From Patescibacteria group bacterium (GTDB lineage: Bacteria > Patescibacteriota > Microgenomatia > PFEM01 > JAHIFH01), in assembly GCA_035529375.1 (NCBI GenBank), contig DATKWU010000004.1, positions 1 through 59,331 of the forward strand: a DNA stretch of 59,331 nucleotides. Reading direction: 5' to 3'. Position 1 is the stretch's first letter; every line of letters begins with the position of its first letter. Below, one piece after another: positions 49,999 through 55,072 of the stretch. The position numbers and the translations under genes were made by a program. The notes under the pieces are model-generated. The model did not search any database. It was not told the origin of the DNA and worked only from the letters and a program-made list of their open reading frames with translations.

Positions 49999-50036
49999 TC
50001 CTAACTAAGAGAGGGAGTAAAGTCAAGGAGGGAAGA

Positions 50037-50390
50037 GTGGGTAGTCAAGAGGTCTTCAAGGACTCTTTCTGTAAGAGTCGTCAAGTGGCTGAGGAAATCA
50101 TGTCAGACTTTGCCGCGAGGGCATTCGACTATAAGGGAGCAGAGCTTGTAGTCAAGTTTGAGATGAGGATGAGAATGAGGATGGATTTGGCCATTCGAAG
50201 GGTATCTACGCAGTCTGAGAAGTTGGGATATCTTTTTGGCTATATCAAGGCCGTGAATGGTCTCTTTGAGATAGCGAATAAGAGGCCGAACGCTAACGCG
50301 AACGAGTTGTCTGAAGAATTCAGGAACCTTTTAGCTGTAGCTCAAATACAGCTTCCTGAATATTCATTTTCGGATTCCTTTCTGGAATAG
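50037..50390 (+). CDS. 117-aa helical orphan protein
   Basis: Start reassigned to GTG 50037 after SD aaggagg. Confidence 0.7.
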   Translation: MGSQEVFKDSFCKSRQVAEEIMSDFAARAFDYKGAELVVKFEMRMRMRMDLAIRRVSTQSEKLGYLFGYIKAVNGLFEIANKRPNANANELSEEFRNLLAVAQIQLPEYSFSDSFLE

Positions 50391-50474
50391 AAGCATTTAC
50401 TCCCTCTCTCATCCTCTCTTATTCTTCGTGTAAATATTGACAAGTGTGAAAAAATTTGTTACTTTGATTAGACA

Positions 50475-52252: not shown

Positions 52253-52294
52253 CTAATTTATTTCTCTAGTTAATAATTAATTATGGAAGGAAGG

Positions 52295-52470
52295 GGGGGG
52301 AAAGATCTGGGAGGGAGGAGAAGGTTCTGTGTGGTGATGAACGTCAGGATTTGATTCGCACCCAAGACCAAGCACCGGGGGCACAGGACCAAACAAGAGT
52401 CCCGTTCCTCCTTGCGATGAACAGCAAGGAAACGAACCTCCTCACACGGACCCTCCCAGATTTCAAACTA
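52295..52470 (-). ncRNA. Candidate structured ncRNA (or micro-ORF mRNA), unassigned family
   Basis: 11-bp end pairing 52305-52315/52451-52461, internal stems, no long ORF; minus-strand promoter TTGACT-18-TACAAT at 52579-52550. Confidence 0.4.
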
Positions 52471-52594
52471 TCTTATAGGCAACCTCCTTTCGCATCGAGC
52501 CAAAGGAACCGCTTTGATTCCTGGAGATTGACTAGTTGTCAAGGATTTCATTGTAGCAAATGGAAATTAGAGAAGTCAAGGCAGAAACTCTAGA

Positions 52595-52644
52595 GGGGAC
52601 ATCATGGGCTGTTCTGGCGGCTGAAAGTGCCACATTTTGTCCCC
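52595..52644 (-). repeat. 3' structured repeat of cassette A (terminator-like)
   Basis: ggggaca...tgtcccc outer stem with internal tgttctggcggc and tgccac; similar copy at 53220-53267. Confidence 0.8.
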
Positions 52645-52664
52645 CCTTTTTTGTTTGCCTATTC

Positions 52665-53096
52665 CTAAGTACCCGTGTAGAGGGCATAGCTATTCTTTGC
52701 CATGATGATAGTACCCATCCCTACCGAGAGACTCAGGATGAAGCCAGTTGAGTATGTTGGAAGGAAAGCAGCGATGACAACCCCAGAGACAAAACCCAGG
52801 ATTATCAGTATGATCGAGATGGCGGCCAAGATGAGGACTAGGAGACAGCCTTCTTCTTCATGCTTTCCAGTGTCCAGGTAGATCATTAGGGTCCAGACCA
52901 GATAGCCTAGAGGGATATGCACCCCCCAGAACATTCCGATCCGGAACGTTCTCTCCTGCCATTCTCCAAGGGCAGCTGAACCCGCGAAGAGAGCGAGGAG
53001 AAGAAAGATGATAGAGCAGAAGACCATCGAGATGCGCCATTCCCATCTATGCGATTCTACTATCCGAAGCTGTTCATGCAGACTCCATTTGCTCAT
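52665..53096 (-). CDS. 4-TM orphan membrane protein, paralog 1
   Basis: SD aggagg; motif FxxGxxxGxxxPxGxxV shared with paralogs 2 and 3. Confidence 0.8.
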   Translation of the reverse strand: MSKWSLHEQLRIVESHRWEWRISMVFCSIIFLLLALFAGSAALGEWQERTFRIGMFWGVHIPLGYLVWTLMIYLDTGKHEEEGCLLVLILAAISIILIILGFVSGVVIAAFLPTYSTGFILSLSVGMGTIIMAKNSYALYTGT

Positions 53097-53115
53097 CCTA
53101 CCTTCCTCCTATCTC

Positions 53116-53175
53116 AATGTGCCACCAGAACAAATTAAGTATATTTAAAAAAGACTTCTAAGTCAATATTATGGG
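53116..53175 (-). repeat. 60-bp promoter/leader repeat, copy A (TTGACT-17-TATACT + leader)
   Basis: 57/60 identical to 54237-54296. Confidence 0.92.
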
Positions 53176-53219
53176 AATATAGATTAAGAATTTATTAATA
53201 TTAATTTGAAGTGTTAGAA

Positions 53220-53267
53220 GGGGACATTGCGTTGTTTTGGTGGCGAGAGCTGCCACGCTTTGTCCCC
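53220..53267 (-). repeat. 3' structured repeat of cassette B
   Basis: ggggaca...tgtcccc with internal ttgttttggtggc and tgccac. Confidence 0.8.
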
Positions 53268-53284
53268 TCCTTGTTTGTTGGCTG

Positions 53285-53695
53285 TCAGCCTTTATTGAGA
53301 ACATTAGAAAACTCAATGATCATTAAACCTCCTGCGATACTGACGGCGTACCCCCAAAGCATTATTCTTGGGGCTACCAGTATTAGGACGAAGCCAATCG
53401 GTATACCAGCTATGATCATTCCCAGGCTGCCGAAACAGACAAAACAGCCAAGGAACCAGCGAAAGGTGTTGTCTGGGTTTTTTATCGGTGCTATCGCATT
53501 GAATATGATATAGACAAATCTTCCCGCTGGAGAGATTGTTCCGACCATTACACCGGCCAGGAACAAGTTACTCATACCTTCTTGTATCTCCTTTGGTATT
53601 CCTAAAAATAAAAGGAGAGTTACAAGAACGACAACAAAGCAGTAATAGATTCTCTTGGCCCTTCTCTCTAGTCTATCTACATCTTCTTTTTTCAT
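53285..53695 (-). CDS. 4-TM orphan membrane protein, paralog 2
   Basis: Start reassigned to ATG 53695 (MKKEDV) after ggaga; shared motif. Confidence 0.8.
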   Translation of the reverse strand: MKKEDVDRLERRAKRIYYCFVVVLVTLLLFLGIPKEIQEGMSNLFLAGVMVGTISPAGRFVYIIFNAIAPIKNPDNTFRWFLGCFVCFGSLGMIIAGIPIGFVLILVAPRIMLWGYAVSIAGGLMIIEFSNVLNKG

Positions 53696-53723
53696 GGTCT
53701 TCTCCGATCTCAAAACATCATGT

Positions 53724-54194
53724 CTAGTCTTCCTTACATTTATGAGGGTCATCCTGAGAGAGCTGATATAAGCTATAGCTACCCCTTGCCATTTCGATGA
53801 TCCCTACCCCTAGTGAGAGGGTAAAGATATAGCCAATAAGGCTCATTTTTGATTGAAACAAAAGAGGTAGGCCGATTCCAAAGATTGGTCCTAGAGCTAT
53901 TATAATTATCCCAACTATGAGAATAAGGAATGGGTCTGAAACCTTCCCTCTTAGGAATAGGGCTATGTTACAGACCAGAAAGCCGGTGGGAGTGACTAAC
54001 CCCACTAGCATTCCCCCTAGAAATGAACTTTCTTGCAGGCATTCGGGGTAGTTAGCCATAAATGTGAGGAAAGCGACTAGAAGGAACAGGACAGAATAGA
54101 AGACAACTACAATGTTTTGCTCCTGTTTTTCATCCCTCATCTCTCTTTTGAGGATCCGATAGCGATCTTTCAATTTCAGATTCTTGACGGACAT
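53724..54194 (-). CDS. 4-TM orphan membrane protein, paralog 3
   Basis: SD taaggag; shared motif; C-terminal MARGSYSLY matches MAKNSYALY of paralog 1. Confidence 0.8.
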   Translation of the reverse strand: MSVKNLKLKDRYRILKREMRDEKQEQNIVVVFYSVLFLLVAFLTFMANYPECLQESSFLGGMLVGLVTPTGFLVCNIALFLRGKVSDPFLILIVGIIIIALGPIFGIGLPLLFQSKMSLIGYIFTLSLGVGIIEMARGSYSLYQLSQDDPHKCKED

Positions 54195-54236
54195 CGGTTT
54201 CTCTCCTTATTGTCAGGTATCAGGTATTAACAAGTG

Positions 54237-54296
54237 AATGTGCCACCAAAACAAACTAAGTATATTTAAAAGAGACTTCTAAGTCAATATTATGGG
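54237..54296 (-). repeat. 60-bp promoter/leader repeat, copy B
   Basis: See 53116-53175. Confidence 0.92.
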
Positions 54297-54610: not shown

Positions 54611-54697
54611 AAAGGCACATTAACATGCTTCAAGGGGGGAGTCAATGTCAATGTAGATATTGACTGCATGTATAAACTCAAACCCCCTTTCCGCTTT

Positions 54698-55072
54698 TTA
54701 TTCTATTTCATAAGATTGGAGAAGATAGTCTTGAATAATGCGAAGATTTTCTTCTATTTCAGTTGGAGGAAGAGTAAATTTCTTCCAAATTTCTAAATGT
54801 TTTTCTAGAAGTGAAAGATTAAGAATTAACTGATAAGTTTTAATTTGAGCCTTTTTATTTTTACCATTTTCAAATTAGTTTGAACCTTTTGAAGTTTTGA
54901 TATTCGCCCAAACATTTACCACCATCAAAGCAATCAAGATTGAAAGCAAGGCAATGAGAACCTGTCTGAATTCAATATTATTGTAGAGAAAATCAGAATG
55001 AATAAAATAGAGTATTCCATTAAGAATAAGAGCAACCCCAATAGCAAAAAACTTTAAAACAATTATATTCAT
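54698..55072 (-). pseudogene. 124-codon membrane-protein ORF interrupted by one in-frame TAA (54875-54877)
   Basis: The 65-aa ORF continues in the same frame for 58 more sense codons (FENGKNKKAQIKTYQLILNLSLLEKHLEIWKKF...SYEIE) to TAA 54698-54700. Confidence 0.6.

What the first reader, a model, noticed from the sequence alone, without database searches (positions are those of the whole stretch)
52595..54296. Tandem cassettes with near-identical flanks but highly diverged cargo
Seen: the 60-bp promoter/leader is 57/60 identical between copies and the 3' elements are clearly homologous. The enclosed proteins keep only scattered motifs, and one cassette holds one gene while the other holds two. 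Ordinary duplication would not leave non-coding DNA more conserved than coding DNA. Inference: cargo exchange or accretion between fixed flanks, gene conversion of the flanks, or strong diversifying selection on the membrane proteins. No recombinase gene is present in the window.
Basis: partly seen in the sequence, partly recalled or inferred. Interest (0 to 1): 0.7.

Follow-up and report, generated by a model that had tools for sequence, protein, structure and literature searches.

The report
Swappable membrane-protein genes with pairing mRNA ends
Two neighbouring gene units for fast-evolving small membrane proteins in a tiny uncultivated (CPR) bacterium keep near-identical non-coding ends because those ends work: they hold a promoter and two short boxes that let the start and end of the mRNA pair with each other, and related genomes show whole units being replaced, gained or lost.

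Summary
The genes are on the minus strand. A 60-nt promoter/leader is 57/60 identical between the two units, and both end in homologous hairpins. The three enclosed proteins are 21-36% identical paralogues of an orphan four-helix membrane family, with about 10 members in 1.8 billion representative proteins.

The conserved ends are functional. They hold a TTGACT-17-TATACT promoter, and a box at the predicted first transcribed base (GYYYUGGUGGCAC) is complementary to GCCACCARRAC in the loop of the 3' hairpin. Across eight cassettes from five sources this 11-bp helix is 98.9% paired. Three neighbouring pairs changed U-A to C-G in separate lineages, and the one-sided changes are G.U wobbles. This points to 5'-3' pairing of the mRNA, as in hok tac/fbi or B. 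subtilis hbs.

Cargo exchange is partly supported. Two contigs with 99% identical flanks carry cassettes whose coding regions are 24% identical. One relative has one cassette where the window has two, and the same-genus genome has none. The cargo is always the same family, the window's genome has only two copies, and it has no integron integrase.

The parts
54237..54296 (-). Cassette B promoter and leader module. The conserved edge is CCCATA (54296). The -35 box TTGACT is at 54287-54282 and the -10 box TATACT at 54264-54259. A palindrome GACTTAGAAGTC overlaps the -35 box and the spacer. The predicted +1 is G at 54252, and the leader box GUUUUGGUGGCACAUU covers 54252-54237.
   Evidence: 10/12 promoter match. 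The same module is found in L022, L023a, L023b and L028. The +1 is inferred from its distance to the -10 box and is not measured.
53724..54194 (-). B1, a 156-aa four-helix membrane protein (A1/B1 subtype).
   Evidence: The AlphaFold2 model has four long helices and mean pLDDT 78. No match in Pfam, NCBIfam, PADLOC or PHROGs.
53285..53695 (-). B2, a 136-aa membrane protein of the divergent B2 subtype. It is the second gene of the cassette B operon and starts 28 nt after the B1 stop, with its own GGAG.
   Evidence: Its closest relative is P0006 on L027 (46% identity; clade support 100/100).
53217..53270 (-). Cassette B 3' hairpin. The outer stem is GGAGGGGACA/UGUCCCCUUC. Inside it are an inner hairpin GUGGC-N7-GCCAC and the anti-leader GCCACCAAAACAA (53244-53232), which is complementary to the first 11-13 nt of the cassette B transcript.
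   Evidence: leader helix; outer stem covariation.
53116..53175 (-). Cassette A promoter and leader module. The -35 box is at 53166-53161 and the -10 box at 53143-53138. The predicted +1 is G at 53131, and the leader box GUUCUGGUGGCACAUU covers 53131-53116.
52665..53096 (-). A1, a 143-aa four-helix membrane protein. Its orthologue P0003 on L022 is about 63-64% identical, with dN/dS about 0.19.
52593..52646 (-). Cassette A 3' hairpin. The outer stem is GGGGGGACA/UGUCCCCUC. The anti-leader GCCGCCAGAACA (52621-52610) pairs with the cassette A leader through one U.G wobble, and a G here compensates the C in that leader.

Best explanation
The region holds two self-contained transcription units on the minus strand, one with two genes and one with one gene. 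They encode old paralogues of an orphan family of 136-163-aa four-helix membrane proteins. The non-coding ends are conserved because they are functional.

(1) Each unit has a strong sigma-70-type promoter (TTGACT-17-TATACT) whose -35 box and spacer carry a conserved palindrome, GACTTAGAAGTC. This may be an operator (inferred).

(2) The first 11-16 nt of the predicted transcript (G-Y-Y-Y-U-G-G-U-G-G-C-A-C) are complementary to a box (GUG...GCCACCARRAC) in the large loop of a G+C-rich 3' hairpin. The two boxes covary, so the 5' end of the mRNA docks into the 3' hairpin and closes the mRNA. This competes with a small inner hairpin (GUGGC/GCCAC) that uses the same nucleotides. The pairing is shown by covariation. 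That it happens in RNA is inferred from G.U wobbles that appear only on the sense strand.

By analogy with hok tac/fbi and the B. subtilis hbs 5'/3'-UTR interaction, and because this genome has RNase Y and RNase J but no RNase E/G, the closed form most likely hides the 5' end from 5'-dependent decay and/or holds the mRNA translationally quiet until it is processed (inferred).

(3) Over evolutionary time the whole unit, from promoter to 3' hairpin, behaves as an exchangeable cassette in variable slots next to tRNA genes. It has been replaced by a very distant family member between two nearly identical genomes, it varies in copy number, and it is missing from the nearest relatives. Homologous recombination through the conserved ends and flanks is the most likely route, because no dedicated recombinase is present (inferred).
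For: The repeat and hairpins are real and unique in the genome.

The same promoter and leader occur in other genomes whose proteins are only 20-35% identical, with the promoter 80-94% and the leader 76-100% identical. L029 and L030 have a different promoter but keep the leader box and the anti-leader.

Leader/anti-leader helix: 16 pairs are 96.9% paired, against 38-52% when the register is slid. The 11-bp core is 98.9% paired. Three consecutive pairs changed U-A to C-G in three separate lineages (winA+L022; L028; L029+L030). One-sided changes in the core are G.U or U.G. No shuffle out of 500 reaches the observed covariation score.

Outer 3' stem: 95% paired, three pairs with compensatory changes, 1 of 500 shuffles as high. 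L029 and L030 add another C-G to U-A compensation.

Folding: the full-length cassette A mRNA leaves nt 1-14 single-stranded and folds the 3' hairpin locally. Forcing the 5'-3' helix costs only 0.2-4.6 kcal/mol in 6 of 7 mRNAs.

RNases: RNase Y is present, RNase J is present, RNase E/G is absent.

Selection: synonymous sites between A1 and its L022 orthologue are near saturation (pS 0.60) while the promoter is 84% and the leader 94% identical, so the ends are under purifying selection.

Cassette turnover: between L029 and L030 the upstream 695 nt are 99.1% identical, the promoter 90%, the leader 100%, the rest of the 5' UTR plus CDS 38% (24% aa), the 3' element 73% and the downstream spacer 96%. 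L022 joins the X82-homologue flank directly to an A1-type cassette. The family is absent from the other 22 genomes of the order.

Known precedents: hok tac/fbi (PMC9841398) and hbs (PMC5737220).
Against: No transcript data exist.

The hairpins lack a U-tract, so termination there is unproven.

The covariation rests on only eight cassettes and three independent events.

The leader helix lies inside a hairpin loop (a pseudoknot), which the folding programs cannot score. In L023a, forcing the nested helix costs 15.8 kcal/mol.

A crude genome-wide test found no significant excess of 5'/3' complementarity (12 observed against 7.3 +/- 2.8 expected), so this is not a demonstrated general habit of the genome.

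Only one clear allelic replacement (L029/L030) and one copy-number difference were found. All nine assemblies of the window's own species are essentially identical over the locus (one mismatch in one of eight compared contigs).

The protein's function is unknown.
Confidence: 0.62

Rival explanations
1. This is a dedicated mobile gene-cassette system, like an integron or a cluster of attC sites without integrase. The 3' hairpin would be an attC-like recombination site, the leader box its partner core site, and a site-specific recombinase would cut out and insert the cassettes.
For: In form, the layout resembles an integron cassette: a 5' box, an ORF, then a hairpin-forming 3' element that contains the complement of the 5' box. 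Cassettes are swapped exactly from end to end in L029/L030 and vary in number. The slots lie next to tRNA genes.
Against: No integron integrase is present: the best hit scores 87 bits against a cut-off of 265. The three tyrosine recombinases lie on other contigs. The boxes do not fit the attC core sites RYYYAAC/GTTRRRY, as read directly from the sequences. Each cassette has its own promoter. The cargo is always one family. The genome holds only two copies, and two whole-collection scans found only one further contig sequence, under three record names. The G.U wobbles are mismatches at the DNA level.
Confidence: 0.07
2. The leader box and the anti-leader are DNA operator sites for one regulator that binds at both ends of the unit (looping or a roadblock). 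On this reading the complementarity is just the same site in inverted orientation.
For: GUGGCAC is nearly palindromic and occurs in the same orientation in both the leader and the 3' element. The promoter also carries a conserved palindrome, so protein-mediated control is plausible.
Against: A protein site would be expected to keep one consensus. Instead, three different positions changed on both sides so that complementarity is kept within each cassette, and cassettes A and B of one genome differ from each other. One-sided changes are G.U wobbles, which are neutral only in RNA. The 3' copy is split by a 4-8-nt hairpin loop of variable length.
Confidence: 0.08
3. The 3' element is released, or transcribed separately, as a small RNA that acts in trans on the leaders (a 3'-UTR-derived sRNA or a type I antitoxin-like arrangement). 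It would not act by closing its own mRNA.
For: The same base pairing would serve. The 3' hairpin is a stable stand-alone structure. hok-like systems combine a membrane protein, 5'-3' pairing and an antisense RNA (PMC9841398).
Against: Each leader matches its own 3' element best; the leader of A against the element of B gives a C.A mismatch. No conserved promoter lies in front of the 3' element or antisense to the leader; the one antisense match, at 54184-54213, is not repeated in cassette A. The proteins are 136-163 aa with four helices, far larger than type I toxins.
Confidence: 0.1
4. This is an ordinary tandem duplication whose flanks were homogenised by gene conversion within this genome, and the ends have no special function.
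For: The promoters of A and B in the window are 94% identical, slightly more than between genomes (80-86%).
Against: The same ends are conserved in unrelated contigs whose proteins are 20-35% identical. The two copies in L023 are only 84% identical to each other, no more than copies from different genomes. Covariation shows selection for pairing. The paralogues do not group by genome in the tree.
Confidence: 0.05

Closest known systems
hok mRNA tac/fbi fold-back (hok/Sok type I toxin-antitoxin, plasmid R1 and chromosomal homologues)
   Same: The very 5' end of an mRNA for a membrane protein pairs with a box near its 3' end. The pairing is supported by coupled covariation across family members. 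An alternative local fold competes with it, giving a closed and an open form (PMC9841398).
   Different: The proteins here have 136-163 aa and four helices, not about 50 aa and one helix. No antisense RNA gene and no overlapping mok-like frame were found. The 3' box sits in the loop of a hairpin. One unit is a two-gene operon closed over about 1 kb. Toxicity is unknown.
Bacillus subtilis hbs mRNA 5'/3'-UTR interaction
   Same: A long-range pairing of 11-14 bp joins the 5' and 3' UTRs in an organism that degrades mRNA with RNase Y and RNase J. There the pairing modulates RNase access to the leader (PMC5737220). The window's genome has RNase Y and RNase J and lacks RNase E/G.
   Different: hbs is a single conserved housekeeping gene. 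Here the pairing is the hallmark of a small, fast-evolving accessory gene family and involves the predicted first nucleotide of the transcript. Nothing has been tested experimentally.
Integron gene cassettes with attC sites
   Same: These are compact units of one or two genes, arranged head to tail, that end in an imperfect palindrome. A short box at the 5' edge is complementary to a box inside that 3' element. Units are swapped and vary in number between relatives.
   Different: There is no IntI and no attC core consensus. Each unit has its own promoter. There is only one cargo family and only two copies per genome. The sequence changes fit RNA pairing (G.U wobbles), not DNA pairing.
Hypervariable allelic loci maintained by recombination (for example bacteriocin-immunity or surface-protein loci with ancient divergent alleles in near-identical backgrounds)
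   Same: The L029/L030 pattern matches: flanks 96-99% identical around a coding region with 24% aa identity and sharp edges. The family also shows presence/absence differences among close relatives.
   Different: This comparison rests on general knowledge and was not tested against a specific family. Here the edges coincide with the functional transcript-end boxes, and the function of the proteins is unknown.

Membership tests
Integron / attC cassette array | An integron integrase (IntI) in the genome or next to the array | tested here: not met
   TIGR02249: the best hit scores 87 bits against a cut-off of 265. The three generic tyrosine recombinases are on contigs C18, C7 and C17, and none is on the window's contig.
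Integron / attC cassette array | attC core sites R'' (RYYYAAC) and R' (GTTRRRY) bounding the 3' palindrome | tested here: not met
   Read directly from the nine 3' elements. The stems are GGGGACA/UGUCCCC-like and the boxes are GYYYTGG/CCARRAC. Neither fits the consensus.
Integron / attC cassette array | Mostly promoterless cassettes with varied, unrelated cargo | tested here: not met
   Each unit has a 10/12 sigma-70 promoter. Every cassette found carries the same protein family.
hok/Sok-type type I toxin-antitoxin | Pairing between the 5' end and the 3' end of the mRNA (tac/fbi), supported by covariation | tested here: met
   The 11-bp helix is 98.9% paired, with three compensated positions.
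hok/Sok-type type I toxin-antitoxin | A small (under about 60 aa) single-helix toxic peptide | tested here: not met
   The proteins have 136-163 aa and four predicted helices.
hok/Sok-type type I toxin-antitoxin | A cis-encoded antisense RNA antitoxin | tested here: inconclusive
   No conserved antisense promoter was found. No transcript data are available.
hbs-like 5'/3'-UTR interaction controlling RNase access | Long-range base pairing between the UTRs | tested here: met
hbs-like 5'/3'-UTR interaction controlling RNase access | An RNase Y / RNase J decay machinery | tested here: met
   RNase Y N-terminal domain at 72.9 bits, over the cut-off. RNase J at 401.7 bits, over the cut-off. No RNase E/G.
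hbs-like 5'/3'-UTR interaction controlling RNase access | The pairing changes mRNA cleavage or stability | not testable with these tools
   This needs an experiment.
Intrinsic (Rho-independent) terminator | A G+C-rich stem followed directly by a U-tract | tested here: not met
   The stem is present and covaries. On the sense strand it is followed by UCUAGAG or UUCUAAC, not by a U-run. A T-run exists only on the opposite strand.
REP/MITE-type repeated extragenic palindromes | Many dispersed copies per genome | tested here: not met
   Two copies in the genome.
Invertible DNA segment (inverton) | Inverted repeats flanking the segment, plus an invertase | tested here: not met
   Inverted boxes do flank the genes. 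However, no recombinase is nearby, the 3' box is split by a hairpin, and the imperfections are G.U-type. Reads showing both orientations could not be sought.

The most novel reading that the evidence does not exclude
The conserved transcript-end boxes may do two jobs. They close the mRNA, and they are also the handles by which whole transcription units for hypervariable membrane proteins are swapped between strains and loci of CPR bacteria without a dedicated recombinase. Because the segment replaced in L029/L030 matches the transcribed unit almost exactly, an RNA-templated route is not excluded. This would be a new, minimal kind of gene-cassette system for surface variation in ultra-small bacteria.
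Probability: 0.12. Interest if true: 0.85.

Novelty: new variant of a known kind. Interest (0 to 1): 0.6.

Why it matters
Pairing between the 5' and 3' ends of bacterial mRNAs is known from only a few well-studied cases, such as hok, hbs and (from my own knowledge) icaR and aapA1. Here it is the most conserved feature of a whole gene family in Candidate Phyla Radiation bacteria, whose gene regulation is almost unexplored, and covariation supports it without any experiment. The same family shows that near-identical genomes can carry coding regions only 24% identical between intact regulatory ends. That marks these membrane proteins as strain-specific accessory functions, possibly in host, phage or competitor interactions. 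It also offers a compact, testable model of how regulatory RNA elements and gene turnover are linked.

Tried and rejected
RNA families: Rfam at E<=1 on the window region and on seven related loci gave only tRNAs.

Protein families: Pfam, NCBIfam, PADLOC and PHROGs gave no meaningful family for the proteins. A Foldseek search of the AlphaFold2 model against the PDB had a best E-value of 0.75, so there is no fold assignment.

Homologue searches: the word-based search found only the protein itself, or four family members when a profile was used. The exhaustive profile search found about nine homologues. The family is absent from 60 relatives and from the other 22 genomes of the order.

DNA scans: the promoter+leader pattern, run over genome contigs and metagenome contigs, found only one other contig sequence, under three record names.

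Same-species assemblies: nine contigs carry the same gene arrangement, and the eight compared at nucleotide level are identical apart from a single mismatch, so they give no information about exchange.

Genome-wide 'closed-end' idea: counts of inverted against direct repeats were uninformative. RNAduplex on long flanks did not discriminate. An ungapped-helix test of each gene's own ends against mismatched ends showed no significant excess. The crude gene caller used there also picks many wrong start codons.

Structure tools: RNAalifold on a MAFFT alignment of the 3' elements misaligned the 3' arm and returned only the inner hairpin. I therefore counted the outer stem on a fixed-register alignment. 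L029 and L030 had to be left out of that count because MAFFT inserted gaps.

L036 against L037: the SNPs cluster in the Lactamase_B gene, not in the cassette.

Literature searches found no description of this family.
Full report
OBSERVATION

The finding is real. The repeat finder reports a 60-nt direct repeat at 53116-53175 and 54237-54296 that is 57/60 identical. A fuzzy search of the whole 843-kb, 19-contig genome finds only these two copies, and only two GGGGACA...TGTCCCC elements, at 52595-52644 and 53220-53267.

All the genes lie on the minus strand. Read in that direction the layout is:
- Cassette B: promoter/leader (54296-54237), B1 (54194-53724, 156 aa), B2 (53695-53285, 136 aa; gene callers in other assemblies use this start), 3' hairpin (53270-53217).
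- Cassette A: promoter/leader (53175-53116), A1 (53096-52665, 143 aa), 3' hairpin (52646-52593).

The three proteins are homologous but only 21-36% identical.

WHAT THE PROTEINS ARE

They match nothing in Pfam, NCBIfam, PADLOC or PHROGs. An AlphaFold2 model of B1, built from a 10-sequence alignment, has four long helices with mean pLDDT 78 and no significant PDB neighbour.

The family is tiny. A profile search of 1.84 billion representative proteins gives about nine homologues. The word-indexed search gives no more. None of 60 relatives, and none of the other 22 genomes of the order, has a member.

A1 has a clear orthologue, P0003 on L022, at about 63-64% identity with dN/dS about 0.19 and dS about 1.2. 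It is therefore a real gene under purifying selection. B2 pairs with P0006 on L027. The paralogues of the window do not cluster together in the tree, so the duplications are old.

WHAT THE CONSERVED ENDS ARE

The 60-nt repeat is a promoter plus the start of the transcript. It reads CCCATAATA, then TTGACT, a 17-nt spacer, TATACT, 6 nt, and then GTTYTGGTGGCACATT. Together with the neighbouring RNA-gene promoter at 52579-52550, the two cassette promoters are the best promoter matches of the region, all three at 10/12. The -35 box and spacer contain a perfect palindrome, GACTTAGAAGTC.

I fetched the DNA around every homologue and found the same module elsewhere. The promoter is 80-94% identical in L022, L028 and twice in L023, although those proteins are only about 20-35% identical to the window's. 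L023 is WVXO01000032.1, labelled an Aminicenantes MAG.

L029 and L030 use a different promoter. They still start with GTCTTGGTGGCAC 7-8 nt after the -10 box and still end in a hairpin that holds GCCACCAAGAC. The oldest and most constant feature of the family is therefore the pair of boxes, not the promoter.

THE 5'-3' PAIRING

The leader box is the reverse complement of the box in the loop of the 3' hairpin. On an alignment of eight leader/3'-element pairs, the proposed 16 pairs are 96.9% paired. With the register slid by 1-3 columns the figure drops to 38-52%.

The 11-bp core helix (G-Y-Y-Y-U-G-G-U-G-G-C with G-C-C-A-C-C-A-R-R-R-C) is 98.9% paired. Three neighbouring pairs changed from U-A to C-G, each in a different lineage: winA with its orthologue L022, L028 alone, and L029 with L030. 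The two one-sided changes in the core are G.U and U.G. No shuffle out of 500 reaches the observed covariation score.

The nine G.U cells would be A.C mismatches on the other strand or in DNA. This points to pairing in the sense-strand RNA.

The outer stem of the 3' hairpin also covaries. It is 95% paired, three pairs carry compensatory changes, and 1 of 500 shuffles is as high. L029 and L030 have a different stem sequence that still pairs and carries its own C-G to U-A compensation.

The full-length cassette A mRNA is predicted to leave its first 14 nt single-stranded and to fold the 3' hairpin locally. Docking of the leader into the hairpin loop would be a pseudoknot, which these programs cannot score. 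Even in the nested model, which must sacrifice the 3' hairpin, forcing the 5'-3' helix costs only 0.2-4.6 kcal/mol in six of seven mRNAs; L023a costs 15.8.

The inner hairpin GUGGC/GCCAC uses the same nucleotides as the leader helix. This gives two competing forms, one open and one closed.

LIKELY MECHANISM

Shown:
- The two boxes are conserved and complementary, and they covary.
- The hairpin is real.
- The genome encodes RNase Y and RNase J but not RNase E/G.

Inferred:
- The box starts at the first transcribed base.
- The pairing is within a single mRNA molecule.
- As in hok tac/fbi (PMC9841398) and B. subtilis hbs (PMC5737220), the closed form protects the 5' end from 5'-dependent decay and/or keeps the message silent until it is processed.

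On the sense strand the hairpins are not followed by a U-tract.

ARE THESE EXCHANGEABLE CASSETTES?

Within the window's own species there is no variation. Nine contigs carry the same gene arrangement, and the eight compared at nucleotide level are identical apart from a single mismatch. Comparison with relatives does show turnover.

(i) L029 and L030 are about 94% identical over 2.66 kb upstream. Segment by segment (on the alignment):

| Segment | Identity |
|---|---|
| 695 nt upstream of the promoter | 99.1% |
| Promoter | 90% |
| Leader box | 100% |
| Rest of 5' UTR plus coding region | 38% |
| 3' element | 73% |
| Downstream spacer | 96% |

The coding regions are effectively unalignable, and the proteins are 24% identical over 98 aa (E = 3e-8). 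The tRNA-Glu beyond the spacer is identical in both contigs, and the DNA after it is unrelated. The replaced segment is therefore the cassette itself.

(ii) In L022 the A1-type cassette directly follows a homologue of the window's 82-aa neighbour, and the 44 nt in front of its promoter match the upstream flank of the window's cassette B. That organism therefore has one cassette where the window has two. Recombination between the promoter repeats would produce exactly this difference.

(iii) In a same-family genome (G002) the slot beside tRNA-Val holds an unrelated 94-aa membrane protein gene.

(iv) In G001 and G004 the contigs break at tRNA-Val.

Only the first half of it is met.

The integron-like reading fails its tests:
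- There is no integron integrase.
- The tyrosine recombinases lie only on other contigs.
- The boxes do not fit the attC consensus.
- Every unit has its own promoter.
- There is one cargo family and two copies per genome.
- Two collection-wide pattern scans found only one further contig sequence, under three record names.

Gene conversion within the genome is not needed either. The ends are about as conserved between genomes as within them; the two copies in L023 are 84% identical to each other.

THE WIDER 'CLOSED-END' IDEA

Earlier notes of this scan suggested that mRNA-end pairing recurs in this genome. I confirmed the perfect 14/14 complement around the orphan gene at 50037-50390. My crude test, comparing each gene's own ends with mismatched ends, found no significant genome-wide excess: 12 units above the threshold against 7.3 +/- 2.8 expected. 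The generalisation remains open.

VERDICT

The locus holds two old paralogous transcription units of an orphan membrane-protein family. Selection keeps their ends constant because they hold a promoter and a covarying 5'-3' mRNA pairing. Over evolutionary time the units are replaced, gained and lost as whole cassettes in variable slots next to tRNA genes.

This is a new variant of known things: hok- or hbs-like mRNA closure, and hypervariable accessory loci. It is not a new class of mobile element. The protein's function, the real transcript ends and the exchange mechanism remain unknown.

Noticed in passing
window 52290-52579 (minus strand): A G+C-richer non-coding unit of about 250 nt has its own strong promoter (TTGACT-18-TACAAT, 52579-52550) and a long closing helix (AUCUGGGAGGG...CCCUCCCAGAU). 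It is convergent on tRNA-Val. It has no Rfam match. A conserved block GAAAGGAGGTTGCCTATAA is shared with L022 and L027; L027 seems to carry two tandem copies, each with the same promoter. A G+C-rich unit sits at the same position in G002 (L020:800-1140). This is a candidate new small RNA gene.
   Followed up: partly
window 54686-55072 (minus strand): An in-frame TAA (54875-54877) splits a 65-aa membrane ORF from a downstream segment of about 58 codons. That segment is homologous to the C-terminal half of an uninterrupted ORF in G002 (L020:3-302). The sequence is the same in all assemblies of the species. It could be a pseudogene, a split gene or stop-codon read-through.
   Followed up: partly
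window 50008-50021 and 50396-50409: A perfect 14-nt complement (AGAGAGGGAGTAAA / TTTACTCCCTCTCT) joins the leader and the region just after the stop codon of an orphan 117-aa gene. This is a second possible closed mRNA in the window. No relatives were examined.
   Followed up: partly
own genome contig C17, about 20.4-28.8 kb (outside the window); L029 4214-4438 and L030 5252-5495: A short sequence of 50-100 nt is repeated many times on C17 and also in L029 and L030, next to tRNA-like matches and near a tyrosine recombinase gene (C17:29910-30365). This may be a tRNA-array or repeat region.
   Followed up: no
L023 4430-4903: An unrelated soluble 157-aa ORF with its own promoter-like sequence sits between the two cassettes of the 'Aminicenantes' MAG contig. 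The contig's 40.6% G+C and its cassettes look CPR-like, so the bin label may be wrong.
   Followed up: no
L020 300-800 (G002): The slot next to tRNA-Val and the G+C-rich unit holds a different small membrane protein gene in the same-family genome (94 aa; I counted about three hydrophobic segments by eye). This suggests a slot that collects strain-specific small membrane proteins.
   Followed up: partly
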